This document shows positions 13,126 through 32,642 of a DNA stretch of 64,000 nt, piece after piece. The stretch spans positions 1 to 64,000 of the IMG/VR virus record IMGVR_UViG_3300032770_000003. One strand, given 5' to 3'. The DNA is from a virus. The notes below the pieces were generated by a model. It ran no database searches. It was given only the letters and a program-made list of their open reading frames with translations, and was not told where the DNA came from. A program made the translations under genes and the position numbers. Position 1 is the first letter of the stretch. Each line of letters opens with the position of its first letter.

Positions 13126-13190
13126 GGGTCGGTAGCTCAAGTGAGAGCGCCCCGCAAGGGGAGACGGTGGTGCAAATCCATCACGACCCA
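13126..13190 (+). ncRNA. tRNA-like RNA with a GCAA tetraloop instead of an anticodon loop
   Basis: GGGUCG/CGACCC acceptor, GCUC/GAGC D stem, CCCC-GCAA-GGGG, GGUGG-UGCAAAU-CCAUC T arm. Confidence 0.7.
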
Positions 13191-13193
13191 CGA

Positions 13194-13267
13194 GCGTGCT
13201 TCGCCCAGTGGTTGGGCACCAAGAGTAATGACCTTGGCCAACGGGGGTTCGATTCCCTCAGCACGCA
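13194..13267 (+). ncRNA. tRNA-like RNA with a 9-nt non-canonical anticodon loop
   Basis: GCGUGCU/AGCACGC, GCCC/GGGC, CCAAG-AGUAAUGAC-CUUGG, UUCGAUU T loop. Confidence 0.7.
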
Positions 13268-13268
13268 C

Positions 13269-14449: not shown

Positions 14450-16075
14450 TCATATTCTACCGCCGACGAAATCAGCGATGACCTGTGGCATGGATGTATC
14501 CAGACCACAGAAGTCCATCATTCCTCCGTCAGCCGGATCGGCGATGCTGACGTTGTTTGCCGTGAAGGCGATGACCGCCAACTTCGCGCCGTCCACCCGC
14601 TCCCTGCGATACTGCTTGATGGCCTGCGCGGGATGGATGTTGCCGTGGTTGGTCTCCGAGTCGGTGTAGACCAGGAAGGCGTCGACCTCCAGGTTGTTTT
14701 TGTAGGCGTGGGCCATCGGCAGTGAGCAGTCAGTCGAACCGAAGTCCGACCGCTGCACGATGTGCTCGACCTCATCGAGCCGCATGCGCGGGCTGATCTT
14801 CAGATCGACGAACTTGTGACAGAACCCGAAGAAGTAGTGCTGCTTCTCCACCCGGGCTGTCACCATCGCCATGACCGCCGCCCCCACAGTGGGCGTGATC
14901 CCTGTCATCCCAGCCAGCTCAGGCGAGCGCATCGACGCAGAGCAATCGATGCCCAGCAGAGTCCTCTTTCCGGTGGGCTCGATCGTGGCGAACGTCGCGT
15001 AGAACGCTTCGTCGAGGGCATCCACGATCCGCTGAGAGACGTCCCACTTCAATGAGCCCTTCACCCCATGCCCCCGGCGGTAGGTGTTGAGCGCCACCAG
15101 CACCTGCATGGGATGCAGACGTGCCCGACGAAGCCGCTCACCGTCGCCCAAGATCTCCATGGCTCTCTTCTCGCCCGCGGACAGCGGAGCGATAAGACCA
15201 ACCTCGGACATCTTGCCCAGGTTGCGGACCAGGGCATGCACGGGCATGTCCTGGAGCAACACCTCCCACACCTCCGCCTTGTTGAGCGCCTCAGTCGGCA
15301 GAGCCTCACGAGGCAGCCGATAGGCTGAGATCATCTGGGTCAGACGGTCCAGGTCCGCCTTCTTCTCGACGTCCAGACTCTTGACCGTGTCCGATGCCCA
15401 CAGCTGTGACAGCGGATCCTCCGGAGCGAGGACAGTGTCACCCCACGCCGGCTTCTTCTTCTCGGTCACCCAGCCGAACATGGAACGGTAGATGTCATCC
15501 GCGGGCTTCGCATGAGCCTTCCGAAGGACGTCCCGGTGAGACCAGCTGTCGCGCGACGGGTACTTGATCAGCTGGTAGGCGAGGTCATCGTAGTCCTGGC
15601 TGAGATACCAGTTTGCGATGGCATGCCGGATTCCGCGTCCCCAACCACCGAGTGTCTGGAGAGCCTCCACCAGGTGGAAGAGATGCGTCCCAATCCGGCA
15701 GACCTTCGGAATCGCACCACGAGCGTGGTTCGCGACTTCGGGATCCTTCGAACGGCACGCGAGCGCCAGGGCGAAGATCGCCGGATCGTTCTTCGGCGCC
15801 CGTCCTTCCTGCGAGATCTTGACGATCTCATCGACGGTCCGCTTGCCGTCAGCCGCAAGACAACGCTGCACACACTGCGCGTTTTGCAGCGTCAGCTTGC
15901 GTTCGGTGGCGTAGTACGAACCACCTTCACTGCCGAGAATCAGGAAGCGACGGAGTCGCGTCCAGTCGTCGACTTGGAAGGAGTAGCCACCACCCGAGTT
16001 CGGAATCTGCTTGCTGCCCGGGATTGGTGCTGTCTGGGGAGTCTGCTTCGGGTTCAGATGCTGTGCGTACTTCAA
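14450..16075 (-). CDS. rsr: Ro60/Rsr TROVE-vWA RNA-binding protein
   Basis: NSGGGYSF.VDDW.RL.RFLILGSEGGSYY, GWGRG, KYPSRDSWSHRD.LR..H, ALVRNLGKM, DCSASM, TDCSLP, VYTDSET, DPAD.GMMD..G.D. Confidence 0.95.
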   Translation of the reverse strand: MKYAQHLNPKQTPQTAPIPGSKQIPNSGGGYSFQVDDWTRLRRFLILGSEGGSYYATERKLTLQNAQCVQRCLAADGKRTVDEIVKISQEGRAPKNDPAIFALALACRSKDPEVANHARGAIPKVCRIGTHLFHLVEALQTLGGWGRGIRHAIANWYLSQDYDDLAYQLIKYPSRDSWSHRDVLRKAHAKPADDIYRSMFGWVTEKKKPAWGDTVLAPEDPLSQLWASDTVKSLDVEKKADLDRLTQMISAYRLPREALPTEALNKAEVWEVLLQDMPVHALVRNLGKMSEVGLIAPLSAGEKRAMEILGDGERLRRARLHPMQVLVALNTYRRGHGVKGSLKWDVSQRIVDALDEAFYATFATIEPTGKRTLLGIDCSASMRSPELAGMTGITPTVGAAVMAMVTARVEKQHYFFGFCHKFVDLKISPRMRLDEVEHIVQRSDFGSTDCSLPMAHAYKNNLEVDAFLVYTDSETNHGNIHPAQAIKQYRRERVDGAKLAVIAFTANNVSIADPADGGMMDFCGLDTSMPQVIADFVGGRI

Positions 16076-23068: not shown

Positions 23069-23171
23069 CAGTTCACACCGATATGAGAGGTCGGCACAGA
23101 GCGACCTTATCACCGGTGGATCAGACCCGACAAGACCCGTGTGTAGTGTTACGTTCCCGACACAGTGGCGG

Positions 23172-23244
23172 TGTTCCCGATGGGATTCGAACCCACAAAC
23201 TTCCGCTTAGGACGCGGACGCCCGTCCGATCGGGCTCCGGGAAC
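23172..23244 (-). tRNA. tRNA-Arg(CCT)
   Basis: cloverleaf; loop GUCCUAA. Confidence 0.85.
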
Positions 23245-23468
23245 TTGCCGAACGACTCGCCAGCGATTTTTCGAACAGAGGGCCAGGTCGTGGAACGCCA
23301 ACCACGCCAGTAAGTTGATCAAGACGGTCATCTGAATGTTGTGCGTCAAAGACCAAGCTTCCAGCTCCCCCCAAGACCGACTGCGGCGTAAGAAGGACTT
23401 GAGAGGAGCTGTCCAAGCCCGCCACCGGTAGTCGTTCGCTGCTGGAATCTCGTAGGCAGCAGGGTAGT

Positions 23469-23987
23469 CTACGGCAGAAGGTCCGTCGACCAGTACTGAG
23501 CCCACTCCGGTGGAGTTGCCCCGCTCACCTTCACCGACACCACCGGCAGGTAGGTCGGCTTTTTCGGCTTGCGAACGAGCGTCATCCCCGCCTCCTGTGG
23601 AGTCCGATCGGCTTTCGTCGTGTTGCACGTTAGACACGATGAGACAATGTTCTGCCATGTCGTCTTTCCACCACGCGACCGTGGGATGACGTGATCAAAG
23701 TTCAAATCCTCGGTGTTGAAACGCTGACCACAGTACTGACACTCGAAATGATCACGAATATACACGTTCAGGCGGCTGAACTTGATCCGGATCCGGTCCC
23801 GCTTGAAGCGAGCGAGCACCCGAACCACTGAGGGCATGGGAAAGCTCCGCGAAACACCCTGAATGGTTCGGTCCTTGGAGTATTCGATTACCTCCAATTT
23901 GCCCAAGATGGTGTCGGCGATCGCGTCTTGCCAGGACGTGACCCGCAACGGTCTCCAGTCGATGTCAAGTACCAAAACGGCGGTCAT
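23469..23987 (-). CDS. McrA-like HNH endonuclease
   Basis: VLVL...P...W..A...PSVVR...FSR.NV..RD...CQYCG...DHVIPRSRGG.T.W.N...C..CN. Confidence 0.9.
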   Translation of the reverse strand: MTAVLVLDIDWRPLRVTSWQDAIADTILGKLEVIEYSKDRTIQGVSRSFPMPSVVRVLARFKRDRIRIKFSRLNVYIRDHFECQYCGQRFNTEDLNFDHVIPRSRGGKTTWQNIVSSCLTCNTTKADRTPQEAGMTLVRKPKKPTYLPVVSVKVSGATPPEWAQYWSTDLLP

Positions 23988-24028
23988 CGGATTCTCCTTC
24001 GCGTCAATGTCGATTCATTGTTCCCTCG

Positions 24029-24101
24029 TGCGCTCGGAGAGATTCGAACTCTCACTTTGTAAGGCTTGAGCTTACTGCCTCTTCCGTTGGGCTACGAGCG
24101 C
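24029..24101 (-). tRNA. tRNA-Leu(CAA), short variable arm
   Basis: loop CUCAAGC. Confidence 0.85.
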
Positions 24102-24102
24102 G

Positions 24103-24315
24103 CTACACCTTATCCCCATCACCATACTCCGCCCGAATCACCTGATACAAGAACCTCCCTTTGGATGGTGCGTCAATGAACTGCTCGAAGACCCCACGCG
24201 GGACGTCCTGGTACGCATAGACAGCTCCGTTGCGAAACTGGACGTAGAGGATCTGTTCCTCGCGGTCGTAGGCCACGGCACTGATGTGCGACGACGCTAC
24301 CGCCTGGATCCTCAT
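24103..24315 (-). CDS. KTSC domain protein
   Basis: VASSHI.AV.YD.....L.V.F.NG.VY.Y..VP...F.....APSKG.F. Confidence 0.9.
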   Translation of the reverse strand: MRIQAVASSHISAVAYDREEQILYVQFRNGAVYAYQDVPRGVFEQFIDAPSKGRFLYQVIRAEYGDGDKV

Positions 24316-24335
24316 GCGACCCAGTTTACATCAAG

Positions 24336-24416
24336 TGCGCTCGGGGGGATTCGAACCCCCATGCCCGAAGGCACGGCTTCTGAGACCGCCACGTATGCCA
24401 GTTCCGTCACGAGCGC
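24336..24416 (-). tRNA. tRNA-Leu(CAG)
   Basis: loop CUCAGAA; long variable arm. Confidence 0.9.
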
Positions 24417-24420
24417 GAAG

Positions 24421-24501
24421 TCGATGGGGAGGGATTCGAACCCTCATGCCGAAGCACTGGCTTCTAACGCCAGCGTGTCTTACCTGTTCCACCACCCACC
24501 G
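24421..24501 (-). tRNA. tRNA-Leu(TAG)
   Basis: loop GUUAGAA; long variable arm. Confidence 0.85.
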
Positions 24502-24523
24502 GATGGGTTGCGACTGCGCAAAG

Positions 24524-24598
24524 TAGCCACGGCGGGATTCGAACCCGCACTGTACACGTCCTCAACGTGCTGCCTCTTCCAAGTTGGGCTACGTGGCC
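24524..24598 (-). tRNA. tRNA-Leu(GAG), short variable arm
   Basis: loop UUGAGGA. Confidence 0.85.
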
Positions 24599-24599
24599 G

Positions 24600-24673
24600 T
24601 GGGGGCGGAGGGATTCGAACCCTCACTGAGCCGGTTTTAGAGCGGCTGCCTCGTCCGGTTGGGCTACACCCCC
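24600..24673 (-). tRNA. tRNA-Leu(TAA), atypical (C33, C31:C39)
   Basis: AGCCG-CUCUAAAAC-CGGCU; completes the Leu cluster. Confidence 0.7.
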
Positions 24674-24698
24674 TGGTGACTCGGGTCATGTGATCTTG

Positions 24699-24792
24699 TC
24701 CGGGTGACAGGAATCGAACCTGTGCACTTGCGCTTATCTAGCGCTAACGCGGGGTATAAAGCCGCTGCTCTACCTAGCTGAGCTACACCCGG
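24699..24792 (-). tRNA. tRNA-Ile(TAT)-like with long variable arm
   Basis: loop UUUAUAC; variable arm GCGCU-AGAUA-AGCGC. Confidence 0.75.
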
Positions 24793-24826
24793 GTCCTTAC
24801 CTTCCTCTCAGAACGAGAGGTGTATA

Positions 24827-24988
24827 ATGCTGATAGCCATAGTCCCGATTGTGATCATGGTGGTTGGCCTCTTGATGTGGGTGCTGGCCGGGAATCCGTA
24901 TGTCAAAGAAGCCGGAAAAATCATGTTCTTCAGCGGGATGCTAGTGACCACCTTTGTGTGTGCGAAGGTCACCTGGCGTATCACCTAA
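24827..24988 (+). CDS. 53-aa two-TM membrane protein, antisense to the tRNA array
   Basis: GAGAGGTG RBS; MLIAIVPIVIMVVGLLMWVLAGNPYVKEAGKIMFFSGMLVTTFVCAKVTWRIT. Confidence 0.7.
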   Translation: MLIAIVPIVIMVVGLLMWVLAGNPYVKEAGKIMFFSGMLVTTFVCAKVTWRIT

Positions 24989-24990
24989 AG

Positions 24991-25061
24991 CGGAGCTGAC
25001 GGGAATCGAACCCGCCTCACGCCGTAGACAGCGGCGCAGCCTCCCAGATGCTTACAGCTCC
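24991..25061 (-). tRNA. tRNA-Asp(GTC)
   Basis: loop CUGUCUA. Confidence 0.85.
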
Positions 25062-25068
25062 ATTCAAG

Positions 25069-25141
25069 TCCGGATGGAGGGAATCGAACCCCCGCTGTCG
25101 TGGTGTGTAGGACCACCGCTCTGCCCCTGAGCTACACCCGG
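25069..25141 (-). tRNA. tRNA-Val(TAC)
   Basis: loop CCUACAC (C33). Confidence 0.85.
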
Positions 25142-25150
25142 GTCATATCG

Positions 25151-25223
25151 TGGGAACGGCAGGCTTTGCTCCTGCGACCTCCGGCGTGTCGAGCCGACGC
25201 TCTCCTGACTGAGCTACGCTCCC
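25151..25223 (-). tRNA. tRNA-Val(GAC)
   Basis: loop UCGACAC (C33); T loop AGCAAAG. Confidence 0.8.
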
Positions 25224-25228
25224 ATGTG

Positions 25229-25301
25229 TCGGGGTAACAGGATTCGAACCTGTGTCGTCTCGGCCCCCAGCCGAGTGCCTGAACCTCTAGGCTACACCCC
25301 G
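25229..25301 (-). tRNA. tRNA-Pro(GGG)
   Basis: loop CUGGGGG. Confidence 0.9.
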
Positions 25302-25658
25302 GTACGAAACAGCATGTGCACGACTACAAAACGGCTTGGACTTGTGTACTAGACGCTTTTCTCTAAGGAACGCTTTTCCACAAAAGGAGCACGTCAAAGG
25401 AACCATGGTCTTGGGTTTGTGATGACGTCGAACGTGCTCAGCCTGAGACACCAACACTTCTAAGTTCTCAAGGCGGTTATCCTTCTTACGTTCATTCTTG
25501 TGGTGAACCACCTCAAGAGCAGTCAGCAGCCGTCCTAAATGGTTTTCCATCACCACACGATGCAGATACACACGTCCTCTTGTATCTGCTGCTGGATGCT
25601 CTGGAACAATTGCCACGTCGTACTGACCGCGGCTCTCTACTCGACGAATCACCCACAC
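25287..25658 (-). CDS. HNH endonuclease; stop codon inside tRNA-Pro
   Basis: HRVVME..LGR.L...EVVHHKN..K.DNRLENL; C-terminal CSFC...FCS. Confidence 0.88.
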   Translation of the reverse strand: MWVIRRVESRGQYDVAIVPEHPAADTRGRVYLHRVVMENHLGRLLTALEVVHHKNERKKDNRLENLEVLVSQAEHVRRHHKPKTMVPLTCSFCGKAFLREKRLVHKSKPFCSRAHAVSYRGVA

Positions 25659-25689
25659 CGGGAAAAGATATCACCACAGAGGGGCTTCG

Positions 25690-25760
25690 TGGCGGTGGAG
25701 GAATCTGCCCCCTCTCCAAGTCCTTATGAGAGACCCGTCTCCTCTGGTGGAGTCACCGCC
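25690..25760 (-). tRNA. tRNA-Met/Ile2(CAT), degenerate D and T loops
   Basis: loop CUCAUAA; GGCGGUG/CACCGCC. Confidence 0.7.
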
Positions 25761-25766
25761 AATCGG

Positions 25767-25840
25767 TACCGCCGACAGGAATCGAACCTGCTCTATTCCG
25801 GTTTCGTAGACCGGCGCCCATCCAATTAGACTACGGCGGT
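25767..25840 (-). tRNA. tRNA-Arg(ACG)
   Basis: loop CUACGAA. Confidence 0.9.
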
Positions 25841-25845
25841 GTGTG

Positions 25846-25918
25846 CGACCCAGCCGGGGGATGATCCCGGATCCTCAGTGTGAAAGACTGAGATGCTTGC
25901 CGTTTACACCACTGGGTC
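25846..25918 (-). tRNA. tRNA-Glu(TTC)
   Basis: loop CUUUCAC; T loop AUCAUCC. Confidence 0.82.
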
Positions 25919-26324
25919 ATTTACGCGATTCACGGCTAATAATCCGCTGAATTTGCTGCCAACAAACTACTGGAAACAGCTTAGCTATAGCTCGAAGTGA
26001 CATAGATGTTGTTGCTCTCAATCGGCGGATCTCAGCTACTTGAGCCACAGTCAGCTTGAACGGACCATCCAAACATTCCTCAGATTTATTCAGATGACAA
26101 GCGTGACAAAGAACTTGACACTTTACTATCTCGGCAGCGCGCTTTGACGCTTTCCAAGACCAAATGTTGTGATCTACTTTCTGTGTGGCGTCGATATGGT
26201 CAAGTTCCAAATCTTCTGTTGCACCACATCTAATGCAACACTTCCCAAAGAAAAATTGTTGTCTCCGCGCAATCATCCACTTACGTTGATACTCCCGCTG
26301 CGTCCGTACGTCCTTATATGGCAT
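25917..26324 (-). CDS. HNH endonuclease with C-terminal HTH, between two tRNA-Glu genes
   Basis: CIRCG..EDLELDHID...KCQVLCHACH. Confidence 0.85.
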   Translation of the reverse strand: MPYKDVRTQREYQRKWMIARRQQFFFGKCCIRCGATEDLELDHIDATQKVDHNIWSWKASKRAAEIVKCQVLCHACHLNKSEECLDGPFKLTVAQVAEIRRLRATTSMSLRAIAKLFPVVCWQQIQRIISRESRK

Positions 26325-26325
26325 G

Positions 26326-26397
26326 TGACCCCATCGGGTATCGATCCCGATCCTCCAGCGTGAGAGGCTGGTGACCTAGCCAGTAGTCTATGGGGCC
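26326..26397 (-). tRNA. tRNA-Glu(CTC)
   Basis: loop CUCUCAC. Confidence 0.88.
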
Positions 26398-26443
26398 AAC
26401 CGGGTTAATAGCCCGGTTATGTGCCCCCAGTGGGGCGATCGAA

Positions 26444-26884
26444 TCAACGACCGAATCGCTTCCGCTGCTTGAAGCGAAGAATTCCTTGAGCGTCCACAAA
26501 CGCTCCCGATACCGGAAGACAAAAGAGTCGATAGGGGCTGTTGTACTGAGTGACGATGTCTCGTTCCACGTGCCGCAGGAAGTGCCACCCCTTGAGCGTC
26601 CGCCGATCGTAGCGACGGCAAAGCTCACTGTAGACATCATTCCAGGGGCGTCCCGCGCGGGACGCCATGAAGCGTTCGGTCTGACTGAAGCGATCACCCA
26701 TCGTGGTCCAGTACTCAGGATCCCTGATGGGATCCGGACCAGCATCGGTGGCGTCTTCCTCCGAACGGATCCGTTTCAGATAGACTCTGATGGCCTGCCT
26801 TTCCGCACGCTGATTCCAGTAGTCCATCGCGCGACCAGCTCTGCCGCCTTCGACGACAGAACGAGCCAGGTTTCGTGTTGCCAT
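26444..26884 (-). CDS. hypothetical basic protein
   Basis: GGGAGG RBS; NLARSVVEGGR...GRPWNDVYSELC...FVDAQGILR. Confidence 0.7.
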   Translation of the reverse strand: MATRNLARSVVEGGRAGRAMDYWNQRAERQAIRVYLKRIRSEEDATDAGPDPIRDPEYWTTMGDRFSQTERFMASRAGRPWNDVYSELCRRYDRRTLKGWHFLRHVERDIVTQYNSPYRLFCLPVSGAFVDAQGILRFKQRKRFGR

Positions 26885-26935
26885 TGATGACCTCCCTTAA
26901 TGGGCTGTGATCATCGGGCACCTCCTTTCCTTTCG

Positions 26936-27003
26936 CGTCCCCTGGGTGAGTTGAACACCCTAACCCGCCTTCGGAGGGCAGGTACCAATCCGTTGGAGAG
27001 GAC
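26936..27003 (-). tRNA. tRNA-Arg(CCG), reduced D arm
   Basis: GUCCUCU/AGGGGAC; loop CUCCGAA; T loop UUCAACU. Confidence 0.65.
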
Positions 27004-27016
27004 AATAGTCAGAGAG

Positions 27017-27091
27017 CGCGCTCGGGGGGAGTCGAACCCCCACACGGCGACTTAGAAGGTCGCTGCTTTTCCAACCTTAAGCTACGAGCGC
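27017..27091 (-). tRNA. tRNA-Arg(TCT)
   Basis: loop CUUCUAA. Confidence 0.9.
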
Positions 27092-27513
27092 ATGAAAATT
27101 CGGTGAGGACCTAGGTAGTCTGTTGCCCATCGCATGTTCTTCTTTTGCTTAGATGCAACAACCCTTAAGTTGAGGTGTACGGCGCCACGCCAGTCTCTTT
27201 GGCGCAAATAGTAACAAAGCCCGTTGTCAGGACAGTAAACAGCAAAAGCATCATAATCCCCTTCTTTGTGAGTACGTATGTGCGTGCCGTGTCTGTCAGC
27301 CCACGAGCTTCTACGTGTCAATCTCAATGATCCTCCACGCAACGCCCTATACTTCACGGAAACTCTGGCCAATCTTCCATCTTCCGCGACCGCAATGAGG
27401 TCAAAAGGAAGATGCTCACTCAAGGGGAGCGCCACATGAAAGTTATTGCGCATAAGGTCAGCAATTACGTGCCCCAGCCCTTGGTCCCCTTTGTCCTTGG
27501 TGTGGTGTCGCAC
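27082..27513 (-). CDS. PD-(D/E)XK endonuclease (group I intron-associated type); stop inside tRNA-Arg
   Basis: TKDKGD.G...V..PLSEHLPFDLI...RVSVK...YD.FAVYCP. Confidence 0.85.
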   Translation of the reverse strand: MRHHTKDKGDQGLGHVIADLMRNNFHVALPLSEHLPFDLIAVAEDGRLARVSVKYRALRGGSLRLTRRSSWADRHGTHIRTHKEGDYDAFAVYCPDNGLCYYLRQRDWRGAVHLNLRVVASKQKKNMRWATDYLGPHRIFMRS

Positions 27514-27529
27514 AAAACCAGAATACCAG

Positions 27530-27602
27530 CTCCAGGAGCAGGAATCGAACCTGCCTCATCTCGCTTAACAGGCGAGCGCTTAAACCGATCAGCCATCCTG
27601 GA
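27530..27602 (-). tRNA. tRNA-Asn(GTT)
   Basis: loop CUGUUAA. Confidence 0.9.
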
Positions 27603-27605
27603 ATA

Positions 27606-27745
27606 GAGCGAACGAAATTATTAGCACTGAGAAGTTTTGAGACGGGATTCGAATCCGCGACCTCCGGCTTTTCGGGCCGGCGCTCTACCACTGAGCTACA
27701 TCCCCGTAATGTGGGGATGGACAACCCAACACAAGCGGCTCGCTC
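27606..27745 (-). ncRNA. Y RNA-like element Y1 carrying a permuted tRNA-Phe-like cloverleaf
   Basis: GAGCGAGCCGC...UUUCGUUCGCUC bulged-C helix; internal CAUCCCC/GGGGAUG, D arm, CCGAAAA loop, T arm. Confidence 0.75.
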
Positions 27746-27747
27746 AG

Positions 27748-27820
27748 AGCCTGTCCCCTGAATCGAACAGGGTATCTCCGCATTACAAGTGCGGCGCTTC
27801 GCCAGCAAAGCTTGACAGGC
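27748..27820 (-). tRNA. tRNA-Thr(TGT)
   Basis: loop CUUGUAA. Confidence 0.88.
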
Positions 27821-27842
27821 AGGTGCTCCACCCTCCCCGCAG

Positions 27843-27914
27843 AGCTGCTGCCGAGAATCGAACTCGGTTTTCCGTTTTACGAAAACGGCGCGTCACCATT
27901 TACGCTTCAGCAGC
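27843..27914 (-). tRNA. tRNA-Thr(CGT)
   Basis: loop UUCGUAA. Confidence 0.88.
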
Positions 27915-28018
27915 ACGAACGAACGCGGTCACATCTCAACTGGAACGTTCAGCACTCGGCGTTCTACCAAACACCGACTGAACGGAGGAACCAGCAGCGA
28001 GGTGACCTCCTGGTACTG

Positions 28019-28091
28019 AGCTGGTGGAGCGAATCGAACGCTCTCCCTCCCCGATACCAACGGGGTGCTCACCCAAATGAGCTTCACCAGC
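28019..28091 (-). tRNA. tRNA-Thr(GGT)
   Basis: loop UUGGUAU. Confidence 0.88.
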
Positions 28092-28097
28092 GATCGG

Positions 28098-28169
28098 AGC
28101 ACTGTGCGGAACTCGAATCCGCGTGGAACAGCTTGGAAGGCTGCCGCCTAACCTCTCGGCCAACAGTGC
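28098..28169 (-). tRNA. tRNA-Gly(TCC)
   Basis: loop CUUCCAA. Confidence 0.9.
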
Positions 28170-28176
28170 AGTTCTG

Positions 28177-28248
28177 AGCATCCAGCGGGAGTTGAACCCG
28201 CTATTCCAGCTTGGCAAGCTGGCGTGTAGCCACAAACACTTTGGATGC
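28177..28248 (-). tRNA. tRNA-Gly(GCC)
   Basis: loop UUGCCAA. Confidence 0.88.
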
Positions 28249-28251
28249 AAG

Positions 28252-28333
28252 GGGTGGACAAAGAATTGAGGACGGAAACGGGGTTTTCGCCCCGAGTCTC
28301 CAATGACGATAACCGTCCTCTGGCGGCCCACCC
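28252..28333 (-). ncRNA. Y RNA-like element Y2
   Basis: GGGUGGGCCGC...UUUGUCCACCC; upper stem GAGGACGG/CCGUCCUC; GUUAUC. Confidence 0.8.
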
Positions 28334-28337
28334 ACAG

Positions 28338-28408
28338 AGGTCTTGGTCAGAGTTGAACTGACGATGGCGCTTTTGCAGAGCGCTGCCTTGCCACTTGGCT
28401 ACAAGACC
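28338..28408 (-). tRNA. tRNA-Cys(GCA)
   Basis: loop CUGCAAA. Confidence 0.9.
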
Positions 28409-28413
28409 GAAAG

Positions 28414-28503
28414 AGGAGATGAAGCGAGTTGAACGCTCGGAGCCTTTGCAGGACTCGGTAGTTTAGCAAACTACTGTGGAAAACCGTCATCCACGTCATC
28501 TCC
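28414..28503 (-). tRNA. tRNA-Ser(GCT)
   Basis: loop UUGCUAA; long variable arm. Confidence 0.82.
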
Positions 28504-28508
28504 AAGAG

Positions 28509-28597
28509 AGGAAGGCGGAGGTCACGATCCCCATGCCGGTCACCCGGACACGCACTGTTTTCGAAACAGGCTCAGCACCAGTGCCGATTCGCCTTCC
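28509..28597 (-). tRNA. tRNA-Ser(CGA)
   Basis: loop UUCGAAA; long variable arm; atypical T loop. Confidence 0.78.
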
Positions 28598-28599
28598 AA

Positions 28600-28770
28600 G
28601 AAAGGTTCGACGGGTTCTTCCCCCGCTGATGACGGCCCAGCTCCCCGGCATTTCAAAAGTCACCATTGACCGGATCGTCGCGGCCTGCGCGTCAGTAGGC
28701 ACACGATGGGTGCCCCCATCATGACTACTATCCTGCACACTGTATGTGTACACCGTGCTGCGAACCTTTC
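28600..28770 (-). ncRNA. unassigned multi-hairpin RNA
   Basis: 10-bp closing stem GAAAGGUUCG/CGAACCUUUC filling the inter-tRNA spacer. Confidence 0.5.
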
Positions 28771-28771
28771 G

Positions 28772-28859
28772 AGGAGACGGCGTGAGTCGAACACGCGTGA
28801 CGCTTTCGCGATCAGCCACAGCTTTCCAAGCTGGCACATTTCCGCTCTGTCACGTCTCC
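28772..28859 (-). tRNA. tRNA-Ser(GGA)
   Basis: loop UUGGAAA; long variable arm. Confidence 0.88.
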
Positions 28860-28862
28860 AAA

Positions 28863-28950
28863 GCGGCCCGGGATTCCGTCGGGTCTGCGGTGCACCACTA
28901 CCCGATAACGTACCCGGTTGGCTTGCGGGTTAACAACCCGGGCCTGCCGC
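28863..28950 (-). ncRNA. possible permuted Y-like element Y3 (divergent)
   Basis: GCCCGG-GUUGUU-loop-AGCCAA-CCGGGU then GUUAUC; closed by GCGGC/GCCGC. Confidence 0.45.
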
Positions 28951-28974
28951 ATATTCAGTTGTCGTACGCTCAGG

Positions 28975-29298
28975 CTAGCAGGAGAAGCAGATACCGCCAC
29001 CACGCTTGTGGGGCATGTTCCGCGTCCCCTCCTTTCCGTTGCGCATCTTTCCGCCGAATCGGATCTTCTTGGTCAGAACCCGGATGGGCCCTCCGTCCGG
29101 TGGGCGGAAGGCTCTGGCATCGACCTGCGTGTACCCCTGCGCGAGCAAGCTGTGCTTCATGCAGTTGAACGCTTCGGTAGTCGATGAATGGGCCTTGATC
29201 TTGTCCTTGTCGAGGCTGTGATTCAGCGGGGTCAAAGTTCCTGTACAGTATTCCTCGGCAGTACCACACAGATACAGATACGGACGTCGGGCTGGCAC
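28975..29298 (-). CDS. hypothetical basic protein
   Basis: AAGGAG RBS, GTG start. Confidence 0.6.
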   Translation of the reverse strand: MPARRPYLYLCGTAEEYCTGTLTPLNHSLDKDKIKAHSSTTEAFNCMKHSLLAQGYTQVDARAFRPPDGGPIRVLTKKIRFGGKMRNGKEGTRNMPHKRGGGICFSC

Positions 29299-29562
29299 AG
29301 TGGGCTCCTTGGTTCGAGAGAGATTCGGTGAATCGACTCGAACGAGAAGCCCATCAGCGTGACGTCAGCCCCGCGAGTTACATGACACGCACCCGCGTGG
29401 AGGTGACGTCGGCCCTACTCATTTCGTGACTCATAGGGATTCGACCTCCTTTCAATTAAGGTGAACCAAGTCTGCGCCTGACATTTGGTTCGTCTGAACT
29501 TCCACAGGGTCAGGATCATAGACTCCAGGATCGTCTTAGCGTCCATTGACTCGGTCCACCAG

Positions 29563-29648
29563 CGGAGAGAGGAGGAATCGAACCCCCTGCGTTCGTCACG
29601 ACAGCCCCCGCGTTCAAGGCGGGTTTCCGACCAATCGGGGCTCTCTCC
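29563..29648 (-). tRNA. tRNA-Ser(TGA)
   Basis: loop CUUGAAC; long variable arm. Confidence 0.82.
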
Positions 29649-29651
29649 ATA

Positions 29652-29758
29652 GGGCGAACGAATTGATCGCTGGTCCGTTCCCCGTACCGGCAAGGTACGG
29701 GTCCTTCCTCCCGTCGAGCGGGCAGTGTGCCGATAACGAACCAACAGGCGGCTCGCCC
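29652..29758 (-). ncRNA. Y RNA-like element Y4
   Basis: GGGCGAGCCGC...UUCGUUCGCCC; upper stem UGUUGGUUCG/CGGACCAGCG; GUUAUC; two effector hairpins. Confidence 0.8.
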
Positions 29759-29760
29759 AG

Positions 29761-29829
29761 CGGGCTGATAGGGAATTGAACCCTACCCTACCGTTTTGGA
29801 GACGGTTTGGCCTCCTTGGCCTTCAGCCC
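29761..29829 (-). tRNA. tRNA-Trp(CCA), compact
   Basis: GGGCUGA/UCAGCCC; loop CUCCAAA. Confidence 0.75.
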
Positions 29830-30210
29830 TCTACTACGTCGTTTCCAATCCCGACACACCTCACAGCGACAATGTTGTCTAACATACATCGAAGCCGTTC
29901 CGTGTTGACGCCTGCGCGTCCAGAACTCACGCATTTCTGTTCGTGTCTTACGCCAGTGACACGCAACACACAACAACTGGCACTTGCTAAGTTCCTCCAG
30001 AAGAACAATAAGCGGTCGTCCGATATGTTTGGTAATCGCAAACAGTTTCGTACTAGGATCGACATGATCAAAGTCGAGTCCACACGTGTCACCACACCAA
30101 ACGCACCTGTCGCCAAGAAAAGCCATCATGACTCGTATGCGGGTACGATACCGCTGACTATCGTAGAGTCGATGATAGCGTCTTTGGTACTCCTTTTCTC
30201 GCACTGCCAC
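29788..30210 (-). CDS. HNH endonuclease reading 42 nt into tRNA-Trp
   Basis: LGDRCVWCG...LDFDHVDP..K...ELSKCQLLC..CH; HGT..Y...CRC..C. Confidence 0.85.
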   Translation of the reverse strand: MAVREKEYQRRYHRLYDSQRYRTRIRVMMAFLGDRCVWCGDTCGLDFDHVDPSTKLFAITKHIGRPLIVLLEELSKCQLLCVACHWRKTRTEMREFWTRRRQHGTASMYVRQHCRCEVCRDWKRRSRGLKAKEAKPSPKR

Positions 30211-30237
30211 GGTTCACTGCAACTCGTATAACACAGA

Positions 30238-30312
30238 TGGTGGAGGCGCGGAGAGTCGAACTCCGGATTACCGGGTGCAAACCGGTCGTGTTCCCGCTAG
30301 CACTACGCCCCC
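30238..30312 (-). tRNA. tRNA-Ala(TGC)
   Basis: loop UUUGCAC; G3:U70; encoded CCA. Confidence 0.92.
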
Positions 30313-30450
30313 AGACTCAACAAATACAACGGAGAGCATACCGAGTCCACCACAGATTCGGCACTGCTTGAGTGTCATGTCGTTGTAGCCTCGCCCCTGA
30401 CAGGCTGGACAACGTCCACATGCTGTGCTCTGCTTTTTTCTTTAGGCATG

Positions 30451-30523
30451 TCGGGATGACTGGATTCGAACCAGCGTCGTCACGCTCCCAAAGCGTGTGC
30501 CTGAACCCCTAGGCTACATCCCG
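30451..30523 (-). tRNA. tRNA-Pro(TGG)
   Basis: loop UUUGGGA. Confidence 0.9.
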
Positions 30524-30877
30524 TTTGTGTCGACGAAAATACTCACGAACGAACGCGCGACAAACATCACAACGGCATCGACGTTTGTAGCGTCCCCAAG
30601 TCCCGTGCCCTGGTGTACGCTCCAGCCTGGTTTTCAGATCATGACAAACTGCACACAGTAACTGACACTTAGCGAGTTCAGCTTCTACTCTTTTCGTGGA
30701 CCAGGACCATATCCTCGAAACAGACGCTGTCTTGGTTGTCCGGTCTATGTGGTCAAACTCAAGATTTTGCACTGATCCACACCAAGCACAGCAACCACCT
30801 AGCTTAGCAATCCAAGCGGCACGTAGCGCATGATAACGACGCAAACAATAAGCACTATGTGCTGGTCCGGATATCAC
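30509..30877 (-). CDS. HNH endonuclease; stop inside tRNA-Pro
   Basis: LGGCCAWCG...LEFDHID...ELAKCQLLC..CH; HGT..Y..CRC..C. Confidence 0.85.
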   Translation of the reverse strand: MISGPAHSAYCLRRYHALRAAWIAKLGGCCAWCGSVQNLEFDHIDRTTKTASVSRIWSWSTKRVEAELAKCQLLCAVCHDLKTRLERTPGHGTWGRYKRRCRCDVCRAFVREYFRRHKRDVA

Positions 30878-30884
30878 GAGTTAG

Positions 30885-30956
30885 TTCCACGGCGTGGATT
30901 CGAACCACGACAAGCAACTTCAAAGGATGCTGTCCTACCTATTAGACCACCGTGGA
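30885..30956 (-). tRNA. tRNA-Gln(TTG)
   Basis: loop CUUUGAA. Confidence 0.88.
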
Positions 30957-30960
30957 TCGA

Positions 30961-30997
30961 TACGTCAAGCAGTCCTGACCAATTGGACGAACCCGGA
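30961..30997 (-). ncRNA. tRNA 5' half (partner of 31096-31139)
   Basis: UCCGGGU-UC-GUCC-AAUUGGUCA-GGAC-U-GCUUG. Confidence 0.55.
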
Positions 30998-31005
30998 TCG
31001 CTGGG

Positions 31006-31079
31006 GGTGAGAAACCGGAGTCGCACCGGCTAGACCGTGGGTCACAGCCACGGGGCTCCACTCTTTGCCTTTTCTCACC
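31006..31079 (-). tRNA. tRNA-His(GTG)
   Basis: loop CUGUGAC; G-1:C73. Confidence 0.82.
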
Positions 31080-31095
31080 GCAATCGCTTCTTGGC

Positions 31096-31139
31096 CTCCG
31101 GGGTGAGTGATTTGAACACTCGCGCGGATGCTCACGTCA
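31096..31139 (-). ncRNA. tRNA 3' half (partner of 30961-30997)
   Basis: UGAGC-variable-GAGUG-UUCAAAU-CACUC-ACCCCGGA-G. Confidence 0.55.
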
Positions 31140-31144
31140 TTTCG

Positions 31145-31217
31145 TGCACGCATCGGGAGTCGAACCCGCGTCTCACGCTTATCGGGCGTGTGCTCTAGCC
31201 TGCTGAGCTATGCGTGC
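31145..31217 (-). tRNA. tRNA-Ile(GAT)
   Basis: loop CCGAUAA (C33). Confidence 0.88.
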
Positions 31218-31534
31218 GCACATTCCGTGTTTTCACAGTGCTCCTCACCATGACAGTTCAAGCACAGGAGTACACATTTCCGCAATTCGGTCTCGATCTT
31301 ACTCCAGGAACAAGCCCCACCAATGCCGAATGACTTCTCACCTGGATGATGAAAAATCAACGAGCGATGGCAACGGTTGTATCCACACCGATTACAACAC
31401 CCTCCTAGTAATGCTACCGCTTTGGCCTTCGTACGACGCCGCCAGACTTTCAGCTGATCATACGTTCGGCAGTTCCTGCACCGTCCCGTCTTGTTTCTTG
31501 ACGAGAGGTCTGTACCACACCGATCACATACCAT
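31208..31534 (-). CDS. HNH-like endonuclease; stop inside tRNA-Ile
   Basis: LGGCCNRCGY..C..SL.FHH...K.F.I...ELRKCVLLC.NCH.E.H. Confidence 0.85.
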   Translation of the reverse strand: MVCDRCGTDLSSRNKTGRCRNCRTYDQLKVWRRRTKAKAVALLGGCCNRCGYNRCHRSLIFHHPGEKSFGIGGACSWSKIETELRKCVLLCLNCHGEEHCENTECAHA

Positions 31535-31606
31535 GTCAGTCAGTGCTTATCAAAGAAAGATAAGACGATCAAGGACCCATCCTGACCATTAGATGAAAGG
31601 TGCAGG

Positions 31607-31735
31607 CGCGCGACGCCGGGACTCGAACCCGGATCTCCTCTTTCCATAGAGAGATAACCCTACCCAAGCGGCTCGGTTCCCCGAACGAAGAGACGAGCAG
31701 GATGTTTAGCGCTCTACCATTGAGCTACATCGCGC
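31607..31735 (-). ncRNA. Y5: tRNA-shaped RNA with an inserted, loop-closed Ro-binding domain
   Basis: acceptor GCGCGAUG/CGUCGCGC; D arm; AUCCUGCUCG/UGGGUAGGGU; UUCGUUCGG-GGAA-CCGAGCCGC; GUUAUC; T arm. Confidence 0.78.
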
Positions 31736-31740
31736 ATGAG

Positions 31741-31809
31741 GCGACGGACAAAGGGAACGTGCTGGGTGGTTTACCTTGAAGTGGTAACCCAACACTTGCG
31801 GCCCGTCGC
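31741..31809 (-). ncRNA. Y6: minimal Y RNA-like element
   Basis: GCGACGGGCCGC...UUUGUCCGUCGC; GUGUUGGG/CCCAGCAC; GUUACC. Confidence 0.8.
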
Positions 31810-31813
31810 TTTG

Positions 31814-31888
31814 TCGGAGTGGTGTGAATCGAACACACGTCATCTCGGTCCCGAACCGAGTGCCTGAAACCCACTAGGCTACACCCCG
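31814..31888 (-). tRNA. tRNA-Pro(CGG)
   Basis: loop UUCGGGA. Confidence 0.9.
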
Positions 31889-31890
31889 AA

Positions 31891-32004
31891 GATGTGATGG
31901 AGAGCGTTTGGATTCGAACCATTAGCTCCGATAACCCTTTCCGGTCGGCTCGCAGCGAGGCGAACAAAAGATTTGGAGAGGGAGTTGCCACTCTCCACCA
32001 CGTC
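31891..32004 (-). ncRNA. Y7: circularly permuted Y RNA-like element with T loop
   Basis: outer stem GUGGUGGAGAGUG/CGCUCUCCAUCAC; UUUUGUUCGC-loop-GCGAGCCGA; GUUAUC; UGG-UUCGAAU-CCA. Confidence 0.75.
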
Positions 32005-32005
32005 G

Positions 32006-32078
32006 TGCCCTAGTCCTGAATCGAACAGGAATCTTTGCAGTTTCAGTGCAACGCCTTCACCAGATAGGCTTCCAGGGC
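32006..32078 (-). tRNA. tRNA-Phe(GAA)
   Basis: loop CUGAAAC. Confidence 0.88.
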
Positions 32079-32165
32079 ATGATTGGCGGGCTTGGCAGGC
32101 CCGCCGCAGTCGCAACTATGAAGTTGTCAGTGATCAGATTTCAGGGGGAGCTACCCCACTGTCTG

Positions 32166-32236
32166 TTGGGGCGGAAGGAATTGCACCCTCATTCACGGAG
32201 TCAGAGTCCGCTGTCCTCCTGTTGGACGACATCCCA
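32166..32236 (-). tRNA. tRNA-Gln(CTG)
   Basis: loop CUCUGAC. Confidence 0.88.
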
Positions 32237-32252
32237 TCAATTTGTTCTGTCG

Positions 32253-32324
32253 TGAGCTGCCGGCGACTTGCACGCCGCTAGTCGGTTTAAGAGACCGATC
32301 CGTCGCTATCTACGGTTGCAGCCC
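32253..32324 (-). tRNA. tRNA-Lys(CTT)
   Basis: loop CUCUUAA. Confidence 0.82.
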
Positions 32325-32473
32325 GTTTCTTGTAAGCCGGCTCGTGTTTCGTCCAGCGAGTATCCTTCAATCAACGCGAGGTAGATTCCCTGATCTCCCA
32401 GTCCAGACAACTCCTTTGCTCGGGCAGTAGCCCATTCAACCTGTTCGTCCAGTGTAAGCAACCTTCTGCGCAT
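32306..32473 (-). CDS. 55-aa ORF between two tRNA-Lys genes
   Basis: MRRRLLTLDEQVEWATARAKEL...; ATG 3 nt after the upstream tRNA, stop inside the downstream tRNA. Confidence 0.4.
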   Translation of the reverse strand: MRRRLLTLDEQVEWATARAKELSGLGDQGIYLALIEGYSLDETRAGLQETGCNRR

Positions 32474-32476
32474 CTG

Positions 32477-32550
32477 TGCAGCCGACAGGACTTGAACCTG
32501 CTCAGTCCGTCTTAAAAGGACGGTGCCCAGACCAGTCGGGCGCCAGCTGC
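32477..32550 (-). tRNA. tRNA-Lys(TTT)
   Basis: loop CUUUUAA. Confidence 0.88.
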
Positions 32551-32555
32551 ATCGG

Positions 32556-32642
32556 TCGGCGGGGTGGGAATCGAACCCACCGGCGACCCGAAGGTCAACG
32601 CGTTTACGGCGCGCCCGGACTCCATTGTCCTGTTTCCCGCCG
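32556..32642 (-). tRNA. tRNA-Tyr(GTA) with C1:G72
   Basis: loop CCGUAAA (C33); long variable arm. Confidence 0.8.

What the first reader, a model, noticed from the sequence alone, without database searches (positions are those of the whole stretch)
27606..32004. Six to seven different Y RNAs in the tRNA array, paired with an encoded Ro60
Seen: elements at 27606-27745, 28252-28333, 29652-29758, 31607-31735, 31741-31809, 31891-32004 and more weakly 28863-28950. All share a helix G(G/A)GCCG paired to UU(U/C)GU(C/U)C with a bulged C, an internal loop, a second 8-10 bp stem, then GUU(A/G)(U/C)C. Stem sequences differ but pairing is preserved. The distal domains differ completely: none, two hairpins, T loop only, or a full cloverleaf. 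Established: a bulged-C helix is the Ro60 binding site, bacterial YrlA RNAs carry tRNA-like domains, and a Deinococcus Y RNA tethers Rsr to PNPase. Inference: one Ro60 (14450-16075) is multiplexed by a set of modular adaptor RNAs released by tRNA processing, each recruiting or decoying a different factor.
Basis: partly seen in the sequence, partly recalled or inferred. Interest (0 to 1): 0.9.

Follow-up and report, generated by a model that had tools for sequence, protein, structure and literature searches.

The report
Six Y RNAs inside phage tRNA array
A large uncultured phage that encodes the RNA-binding ring protein Ro60 also carries six different partner "Y RNAs" slotted between its tRNA genes, two of them built as tRNAs whose anticodon arm is replaced by the Ro60-binding hairpin, a layout that also turns up next to Ro60 genes in many other phages and bacteria.

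Summary
Six of the seven proposed elements are real; 28863-28950 is not supported. All six lie on the tRNA strand of a 171-kb uncultured phage, each filling a tRNA slot. They share a helix GRGC[C]G / YGUYC with one bulged C, an internal loop, a 7-12 bp upper stem and GUURYC.

A covariance model grown from them also finds the published YrlA of mycobacteriophage ET08. It matched in 24 of 50 Ro60-encoding viral contigs, mostly within 1 kb of Ro60, and in none of 43 tRNA-array contigs lacking a TROVE gene. Seventeen of its 19 pairs show compensatory changes. The phage Ro60 gene is intact and has no Y RNA beside it.

There the Ro60 helix is a closed hairpin inside a tRNA frame with an open acceptor stem. 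This tRNA-framed form recurs beside Ro60 in about 30 phage and metagenome loci and at least 56 bacterial genomes. I found no description of it, but three key papers could not be read.

These are new variants of a known kind. That they are Y RNAs, and that their family goes with Ro60 genes, is supported. Release by tRNA processing is inferred from spacing. One effector per RNA is untested.

The parts
14450..16075 (-). Ro60 (TROVE + vWA) gene, 541 aa, intact
   Evidence: Pfam vWA_Ro60 E 1e-54 and TROVE E 4e-39. PDB 1yvp E 4e-128 and Rsr 2nvo E 7e-104. Nearest relative is 62% identical. No Y RNA match within 4 kb.
23170..32642 (-). tRNA array of about 35 tRNAs that hosts the six elements
   Evidence: ARAGORN and Rfam tRNA matches.
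27606..27745 (-). E1. A Y helix formed by the 5' and 3' ends, enclosing a closed acceptor-like hairpin, then D arm, anticodon-like arm (loop CCGAAAA) and T arm in tRNA order.
   Evidence: Model R3 21.5 bits, E 0.005, not a seed member. Rfam tRNA positions 7-64, 47.8 bits. Its D and T arms are nearly identical to those of ET08 YrlA. It lies 1 nt after tRNA-Thr and 3 nt before tRNA-Asn. The same topology occurs in L141, L094 and L291.
28252..28333 (-). E2. A simple Y RNA with a 9-bp lower helix, an 8-bp upper stem, GUUAUC and two small distal hairpins.
   Evidence: Fold z -3.0. Found by the single-sequence E5 model at E 0.002-0.02. R3 55.2 bits. Lies between tRNA-Cys and tRNA-Gly.
29652..29758 (-). 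E3. A Y RNA with a 9-bp lower helix, a 12-bp upper stem, GUUAUC and three distal hairpins.
   Evidence: Found by model R2 (built from E5 and E2) at 25.3 bits, E 0.003. R3 60.5 bits. Lies between tRNA-Trp and a probable tRNA-Ser(UGA).
31608..31734 (-). E4. A tRNA-framed Y RNA: 7-bp acceptor stem, D arm, the Y module as a closed hairpin (GGAA loop) in place of the anticodon arm, a variable hairpin and a T arm. No CCA is encoded.
   Evidence: Rfam tRNA 43.8 bits with a large insert. The minimum-free-energy fold is a cloverleaf. The class recurs beside Ro60: 30 distinct sequences, with covariation in every acceptor pair.
31741..31809 (-). E5. A minimal 69-nt Y RNA with a 10-bp lower helix, a 9-bp upper stem and GUUACC.
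   Evidence: Fold z -4.1. Weak match to the nematode family ceN72-3_ceN74-2 (27.8 bits, E 0.025), which from my own knowledge is among the nematode stem-bulge RNAs proposed as Y RNA homologues. R3 58.5 bits.
31891..32004 (-). E6. A permuted Y module (closed hairpin) inside an 11-13 bp terminal stem, with a weak T arm and no D arm.
   Evidence: Descriptor match. Fold z -3.5. D-arm-less tRNA-framed relatives lie beside Ro60 in L275, L324 and L335. This is the weakest of the six.

Best explanation
The six elements are phage-encoded Y RNAs, the small RNAs that bind Ro60.

They are most likely transcribed with the tRNAs as one precursor. RNase P cutting at the next tRNA, and 3' trimming of the previous one, would set them free. 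E4 would be cut at its own acceptor stem. The freed RNAs would then bind the phage Ro60 (14450-16075) through the shared bulged-C helix.

Following the established Y RNA model, the helix gates the Ro60 ring and the variable far end tethers Ro60 to a partner. The most likely partner is a host 3'-5' exoribonuclease such as PNPase, which would redirect host RNA decay or tRNA quality control during infection.

Basis of each step:
- Shown here: the shared structure, homology to known phage Y RNAs, covariation, and strict co-occurrence of the family with Ro60 genes.
- Inferred: co-transcription, processing, Ro60 binding and the PNPase partner.

The set spans four layouts:
- simple (E2, E3, E5);
- a tRNA body in native order inside the Y stem (E1);
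- tRNA-framed with a closed Ro60 hairpin (E4);
- the same without a D arm (E6).
For: Chain of homology: a model built from E5 alone finds E2. A model from E5 and E2 finds E3 and the RNAs directly upstream of ET08 Ro60 gp220. Model R3 then finds E1 and the published ET08 YrlA, neither of which was in its seed.

Covariation: on 51 matches, 92.3% of cells are paired against 64% in shuffles and about 44% when partners are slid, and 17 of 19 pairs show double changes.

Link to Ro60:
- 24 of 50 Ro60-encoding viral contigs match, against 0 of 43 TROVE-free tRNA-array contigs and 0 of 5 Ro60-free relatives of this phage.
- 37 of 45 matches lie within 1 kb of Ro60.
- All 62 matches in 50 metagenome loci are on the Ro60 strand.

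Local context: this phage's Ro60 has no adjacent Y RNA. The nearest Ro60 relative (62% identical) has an E4-type RNA plus a simple Y RNA directly upstream. Spacers to flanking tRNAs are 0-5 nt.

Literature: M. smegmatis YrlA is cut by RNase P and receives CCA (PMC4201824). A Thermus phage Ro60 binds two phage Y-like RNAs and host PNPase (PMC12135203).
Against: - There is no expression or binding data, and the host is unknown.
- The Rfam YrlA model scores only 20.6 bits on E1, though the published ET08 YrlA also fails its cut-off at 37.4 bits.
- The elements lie 11.5-16 kb from Ro60, not within the usual 1-4 kb.
- In E4 and E6 the helix end is closed by a loop, a form never tested for Ro60 binding.
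- E6 rests on a descriptor and a few look-alikes only.
- E2, E3 and E5 were seed members of R3, so their high scores follow from how the model was built.
- The 51-sequence alignment was fitted to the model, which favours pairing.
Confidence: 0.8

Rival explanations
1. The six RNAs form a multiplexed adaptor set. Each distal domain would recruit or decoy a different factor, so that one Ro60 serves six different tasks.
For: The distal domains differ completely, and each belongs to a class that recurs elsewhere: simple, T arm only, YrlA order, tRNA order, and tRNA-framed. Y RNAs are described as modular tethers (10.1101/312249; PMC4201824).
Against: No effector has been identified. The phage encodes no RtcB, CCA-adding enzyme or Rnl2 ligase. 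Having 2-6 Y RNAs per Ro60 gene is common and could equally reflect dosage, redundancy or gating alone.
Confidence: 0.3
2. E1, E4 and E6 are decayed or insert-bearing tRNA genes, and the shared motif is a by-product of tRNA-array evolution with no link to Ro60.
For: Rfam scores E4 and E1 as tRNA, at 43.8 and 47.8 bits. The array also holds other odd tRNA-like pieces.
Against: The insert is the Ro60 helix, not an anticodon arm or an intron. tRNA-framed copies sit beside Ro60 on its strand in 56 bacterial genomes, at a median distance of 358 nt. Their acceptor stems are 100% paired, with compensatory changes in all 7 pairs. None of 43 Ro60-free tRNA arrays has the module.
Confidence: 0.05
3. The tRNA-like members work mainly without Ro60. 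They would act as tRNA mimics that soak up host tRNA-cutting defence nucleases or tRNA-binding enzymes, protecting the phage's own tRNAs.
For: They sit among about 35 phage tRNAs. E1 has an anticodon-like loop, and E4 has an acceptor stem that could receive CCA. The D and T arm sequences are those conserved in YrlA, for which an unknown elbow-binding factor has been proposed (10.1101/312249).
Against: All of them keep the Ro60 helix, with covariation, and the class tracks Ro60 genes. No defence-nuclease target site is evident.
Confidence: 0.12

Closest known systems
YrlA and neighbouring Y RNAs of mycobacteriophage ET08 (Bxz1-like); Chen et al. 2014, PMC4201824
   Same: Both share the module GGC[C]G ... 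GGUUAYC ... AUGUCU, with upper and lower stems, and both come from a phage with a Ro60 gene. Their D and T arm sequences are nearly identical to those of E1. ET08 also has at least two such RNAs inside its own tRNA array.
   Different: ET08 keeps three of its Y RNAs directly upstream of Ro60, whereas here none is adjacent. ET08 YrlA has the order T arm, closed acceptor loop, D arm. None of the six elements here has that order.
M. smegmatis YrlA, which is cut by RNase P and given CCA (PMC4201824)
   Same: After processing it has an open, tRNA-like acceptor end and a Ro60 stem, which is the shape that E4 encodes directly.
   Different: It is transcribed in the permuted order and ends up as two base-paired halves. 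E4 is one chain whose Ro60 helix is closed by a tetraloop.
D. radiodurans Yrn1 and metazoan Y RNAs (bulged helix GGUC[C]GA / UUGACU)
   Same: Both strands of the bulged-C helix are retained, and the 5' and 3' ends pair in E1, E2, E3 and E5. E1, like Yrn1, has an anticodon-like arm between its D and T elements.
   Different: The U-A pair next to the C-G pair is a G-U or G-C pair here. GUURYC follows the upper stem. The Rfam Y_RNA and Deinococcus_Y_RNA models give no match in the window.
Yrl1 and Yrl2 of Thermus phage phiLo with its Ro60 and host PNPase (PMC12135203)
   Same: A phage Ro60 with more than one phage-encoded Y-like RNA, and a host nuclease as partner.
   Different: Those two RNAs lie just upstream of Ro60, are defined by a CGAA motif, and are not in a tRNA array.
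b7a-tRNA of Burroughs and Aravind 2016, as cited in 10.1101/312249
   Same: A predicted tRNA-shaped RNA that is 'occasionally encoded adjacent to Rsr'. It could overlap the tRNA-framed class.
   Different: It is said to be linked mainly to Band-7 proteins and RtcB. I could not read the paper, so I do not know whether it carries the Ro60 helix.

Membership tests
Y RNA (Ro60-binding RNA) | A conserved helix with a single bulged C in the 5' strand | tested here: met
   GRGC[C]G pairs with YGUYC in all six elements. The R:Y pair is A-U in four and G-C in two, and the G:Y pair is G-C in three and G-U in three. Family-wide the pairs are C-G in 47 of 51 and G-U or G-C, with the bulge kept.
Y RNA (Ro60-binding RNA) | The helix is formed by the 5' and 3' ends of the RNA | tested here: inconclusive
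   Met for E1, E2, E3 and E5. Not met for E4 and E6, where the helix is a closed hairpin.
Y RNA (Ro60-binding RNA) | Bound by Ro60 | not testable with these tools
   This needs an EMSA or RIP experiment. Only the genomic link was tested.
Y RNA (Ro60-binding RNA) | Encoded with a Ro60 gene | tested here: met
   Same genome and strand, 11.5-16 kb apart. For the family: 24 of 50 Ro60-encoding contigs against 0 of 48 without.
YrlA (Rfam RF02553; Chen et al. 2014) | Order T arm, closed acceptor stem-loop, D arm inside the Ro60 stem | tested here: not met
   E1 has the order acceptor hairpin, D, anticodon-like arm, T. E4 has an open acceptor stem and a closed Ro60 hairpin.
YrlA (Rfam RF02553; Chen et al. 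2014) | GNCGAAN0-1G near the 5' end and YUAY opening the V region | tested here: inconclusive
   GCCG is present, but it is followed by C (five elements) or A (one element) rather than AA. UUAU or UUAC within GUUAYC fits YUAY.
YrlA (Rfam RF02553; Chen et al. 2014) | Reaches the Rfam gathering score of 69 bits | tested here: not met
   The best score is 20.6 bits, on E1. The published ET08 YrlA reaches only 37.4 bits and a clear phage YrlA 38.2 bits, so this cut-off is uninformative for phages.
tRNA (RF00005) | Cloverleaf with a 7-nt anticodon loop and a free acceptor end | tested here: not met
   E4 has the acceptor, D and T arms, but a roughly 50-nt Ro60 module replaces the anticodon arm. E1 has an anticodon-like loop, but its acceptor stem is closed.

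The most novel reading that the evidence does not exclude
The tRNA-framed Y RNA (E4 type, with E6 as a variant lacking the D arm) may be an undescribed, widespread circular permutation of YrlA.

It is a tRNA whose anticodon arm is the Ro60-binding hairpin. It would be matured by RNase P and CCA addition like any tRNA. It is the main or only Y RNA beside Ro60 in groups such as cyanobacteria and myxobacteria, where earlier searches found few YrlA RNAs.

If so, Y RNAs could arise directly from single tRNA genes rather than from dimeric tRNA transcripts. It would also provide a Ro60 partner with a free acceptor end that might even be aminoacylated.
Probability: 0.4. Interest if true: 0.75.

Novelty: new variant of a known kind. 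Interest (0 to 1): 0.65.

Why it matters
What the far ends of Y RNAs bind, and why so many mimic tRNA, is an open question. This phage puts four layouts side by side in one operon: a simple Y RNA, a tRNA body inside the Y stem, a Y hairpin inside a tRNA, and the same without a D arm.

The tRNA-framed layout proved common beside Ro60 in phages and bacteria. It gives testable RNAs in organisms that can be grown, such as Bxz1-like phages in M. smegmatis, Nostoc punctiforme and Sorangium.

Tried and rejected
- Rfam at gathering scores finds only tRNAs. At relaxed E-values it gives only weak YrlA matches and, on E5, a weak match to a nematode small-RNA family.
- MAFFT could not align the full-length elements in register. 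I therefore grew the model stepwise from E5.
- Megablast against 50,697 phage records found no match.
- A single-protein search for Ro60 relatives found nothing in the viral or metagenome contigs. Alignment-based searches did.
- Five terminase relatives of this phage carry no tRNAs, no Ro60 and no module, so I had no orthologous copies for per-element covariation.
- The half-motif RGCCG...GUURYC alone is not enriched genome-wide: 23 observed against 17.5 expected.
- Element 28863-28950 was rejected as a Y RNA.
- Three papers were not readable here: the reviews by Sim and Wolin (2018) and Sim et al. (2020), and Burroughs and Aravind (2016).


Full report
**Setting.** The window is the first 64 kb of a 171,494-bp IMG/VR virus record judged 96% complete. 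It has no close DNA relative among 50,697 deposited phages. The minus strand carries about 35 tRNA genes between 23170 and 32642. It also carries an intact Ro60 gene at 14450-16075, with Pfam vWA_Ro60 at E 1e-54, TROVE at E 4e-39, and Xenopus Ro60 1yvp at E 4e-128. The best Ro60 relatives in deposited phages are 38-42% identical and come from Microbacterium, Gordonia, Mycobacterium cluster C and Streptomyces phages. The best in metagenomes is 62% identical.

Read on the minus strand, they are:
- E1 27745-27606
- E2 28333-28252
- E3 29758-29652
- E4 31734-31608
- E5 31809-31741
- E6 32004-31891

All six contain G-R-G-C-[C]-G paired with Y-G-U-Y-C, leaving one C bulged. Next come an asymmetric internal loop, a 7-12 bp upper stem, and GUUAUC, GUUACC or GUUGUC.

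The R:Y pair is A-U in four elements and G-C in two. The flanking stem sequences all differ but stay paired.

E2, E3 and E5 adopt this shape as their unconstrained minimum-free-energy fold.

Each element occupies a tRNA slot with 0-5 nt spacers:
- E1 lies between tRNA-Thr and tRNA-Asn.
- E2 lies between tRNA-Cys and tRNA-Gly.
- E3 lies between tRNA-Trp and a probable tRNA-Ser(UGA).
- E6 lies between tRNA-Phe and tRNA-Pro.
- E5 and then E4 follow directly after tRNA-Pro.

The seventh candidate, 28950-28863, is a GC-rich structured spacer. It has GUUAUC but no bulged helix and no model match.

**Chance is excluded.** A loose descriptor gives 9 matches in the genome against 2.5 +/- 1.8 in simulated genomes. 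Six of the nine fall in 4.4 kb on the tRNA strand.

I then grew a covariance model stepwise:
- A model built from E5 alone finds E2.
- A model built from E5 and E2 finds E3. It also finds RNAs directly upstream of the Ro60 gene gp220 of mycobacteriophage ET08 and one inside ET08's tRNA array.
- The final model R3 was built from three window elements and three ET08 elements.

R3 finds E1 at 21.5 bits (E 0.005), the published ET08 YrlA at 31.6 bits, and another ET08 array element at 29.6 bits. None of these was in its seed. The best background match in the window is 13.6 bits.

**The family is tied to Ro60.**
- R3 matched 24 of 50 Ro60-encoding viral contigs, with 45 matches in all. Thirty-seven of the 45 lie within 1 kb of Ro60. 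The seven beyond 100 kb all lie in three jumbo phages; the five of these whose surroundings I examined are in or beside tRNA genes.
- R3 matched none of 43 viral contigs that were chosen only for having tRNA arrays. None of those 43 has a TROVE gene.
- R3 matched none of five relatives of this phage, found by their terminase. These relatives lack Ro60 and tRNAs. Fisher p for the combined comparison is 3e-9.
- In 50 metagenome Ro60 loci, all 62 matches are on the Ro60 strand, with up to five or six per locus.
- On 51 matches, 92.3% of cells are paired, against 64% in shuffles and about 44% when partners are slid. Seventeen of 19 pairs carry double changes. This alignment was fitted to the model, which favours pairing.

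In E4 and E6 the order of the two helix strands is reversed and the helix is closed by a short loop.

E4 is a complete cloverleaf. It has a 7-bp acceptor stem, a D arm, a long arm made of the upper stem, the internal loop and the bulged-C hairpin with a GGAA loop, then GGUUAUC, a variable hairpin and a T arm. Rfam sees it only as a tRNA with a large insert, at 43.8 bits.

The same architecture sits directly upstream of Ro60 in other phage contigs, for example L052 9862-9983. It is also present in the nearest Ro60 relative, at L267 852-976, followed at once by a simple Y RNA.

Across the Ro60 loci fetched here I found 30 distinct examples. All 29 outside the window lie on the Ro60 strand and within about 1.5 kb of the gene; the window's own copy, E4, is on the Ro60 strand but 15.5 kb away.

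In a MAFFT alignment of 20 of them, which was not fitted to any structure:
- the acceptor stem is 100% paired, with compensatory changes in all 7 pairs;
- the T stem is 100% paired;
- the lower hairpin is 93% paired.

It gave 70 matches with a tRNA frame. Fifty-six of these have Ro60 inside the 8-kb locus. All 62 Ro60-adjacent matches are on the Ro60 strand, at a median distance of 358 nt. Most of the frameless matches, 57 of 63, have no Ro60 and look like chance. Named examples are Nostoc punctiforme, Cylindrospermum, Sorangium and Deinococcus lacus. Rfam labels them tRNA only.

The other layouts also recur:
- E6 is the same design without a D arm. Similar copies lie beside Ro60 in L275, L324 and L335.
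- E1 is a third layout. The Y stem encloses a closed acceptor-like hairpin, then a D arm, an anticodon-like arm and a T arm in native tRNA order (Rfam tRNA positions 7-64, 47.8 bits). This layout recurs in L141, L094 and L291, against 25 copies with the canonical YrlA order.

**Comparison with what is known.**
- YrlA RNAs were reported beside Ro60 in 254 bacteria and 22 phages. They are described as circularly permuted tRNAs with a closed acceptor loop (PMC4201824; 10.1101/312249).
- M. smegmatis YrlA is cut by RNase P and receives CCA (PMC4201824).
- Few YrlA RNAs were found in cyanobacteria and delta-proteobacteria (PMC4201824). These are groups where I find the tRNA-framed form.
- A Thermus phage Ro60 binds two phage Y-like RNAs and host PNPase (PMC12135203).

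So Y RNAs in Ro60 phages, several Y RNAs per Ro60, and modular far ends are all known.

New here, as far as the searchable library shows, are three things:
- Y RNAs used as tRNA-slot genes in a phage tRNA operon with none beside Ro60;
- the tRNA-framed permutation as a recurrent class;
- the tRNA-order layout of E1.

One caveat applies. Two reviews and Burroughs and Aravind 2016 could not be read. The latter's 'b7a-tRNA' is said to lie occasionally next to Rsr.

**Mechanism.** Shown here: the structure, the homology, the covariation and the linkage to Ro60.

Inferred:
- The array is transcribed as a precursor.
- RNase P and tRNA 3' processing release the Y RNAs. E4 would be matured like a tRNA and given CCA by the host enzyme, since no CCA is encoded and the phage has no CCA-adding enzyme.
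- The RNAs load onto the phage Ro60.
- Their far ends tether it to host factors, PNPase being the precedent.

The phage encodes no RtcB and no Rnl2 ligase, so a self-contained RNA repair module is unlikely. Whether the six RNAs serve six different tasks is open.

**Verdict.** These are new variants of a known kind, and the tRNA-framed class is the most interesting by-product.

Noticed in passing
window 28863-28950 (-): The 'seventh Y RNA' is a GC-rich structured spacer (z -3.2) between a small ORF and tRNA-Ser. It has GUUAUC but no bulged-C helix and no model match. Its function is unknown.
   Followed up: partly
window 29563-29649, 25151-25223, 32166-32236 (-): Three likely tRNAs missed by ARAGORN. 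One is a probable class II tRNA-Ser(UGA), scoring 37.1 bits on the tRNA-Sec model. The other two are tRNAs seen only by Rfam.
   Followed up: partly
window 24698-24792 (-): A tRNA-Ile(UAU) of 95 nt with a long extra arm, which is unusual for an Ile tRNA.
   Followed up: no
window 28505-28600, 30995-31090, 32079-32165 (-): Further structured spacers in the array that are neither tRNAs nor Y RNAs (z -2.5 to -3.1). The first has four arms closed by an 8-bp stem.
   Followed up: no
window 27082-27513, 29788-30210, 30509-30877, 31208-31534 (-): ORFs lie inside the tRNA array: a PD-(D/E)XK endonuclease (E 1e-27) and three small Cys-rich ORFs without a Pfam family. They are possibly homing-type genes.
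   Followed up: partly
window 27606-27745 (-): The upper-stem 5' strand of E1 can pair either with its proper 3' partner or with the D-arm sequence CUCAGUG, which occurs twice in the element. This suggests two competing folds.
   Followed up: no
L003 1503-1621 and 2431-2541 (NC_013650, about 92487-92605 and 93415-93525): Mycobacteriophage ET08 (Bxz1-like) has at least two Y-type RNAs inside its tRNA array, besides three in tandem upstream of Ro60 gp220. One of the array copies has a T arm.
   Followed up: partly
L312 (Ga0315273_10016844, 9.5 kb): A metagenome contig holds 33 tRNAs followed by Ro60. Y RNAs lie inside the array (1677-1857) and after Ro60 (7939-8374). The design is the same as in this phage.
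   Followed up: partly
L400 (Sorangium So ce388) and L419 (Deinococcus lacus): In these bacteria, Ro60 sits among tRNA genes with tRNA-framed Y RNAs between them. L419 also has a match to the Deinococcus Y RNA model (44.8 bits).
   Followed up: partly
window 13126-13268 (+): Two tRNA-like genes, one of them tRNA-Ile(AAU), lie on the opposite strand beside a dCTP deaminase gene, away from the main array.
   Followed up: no
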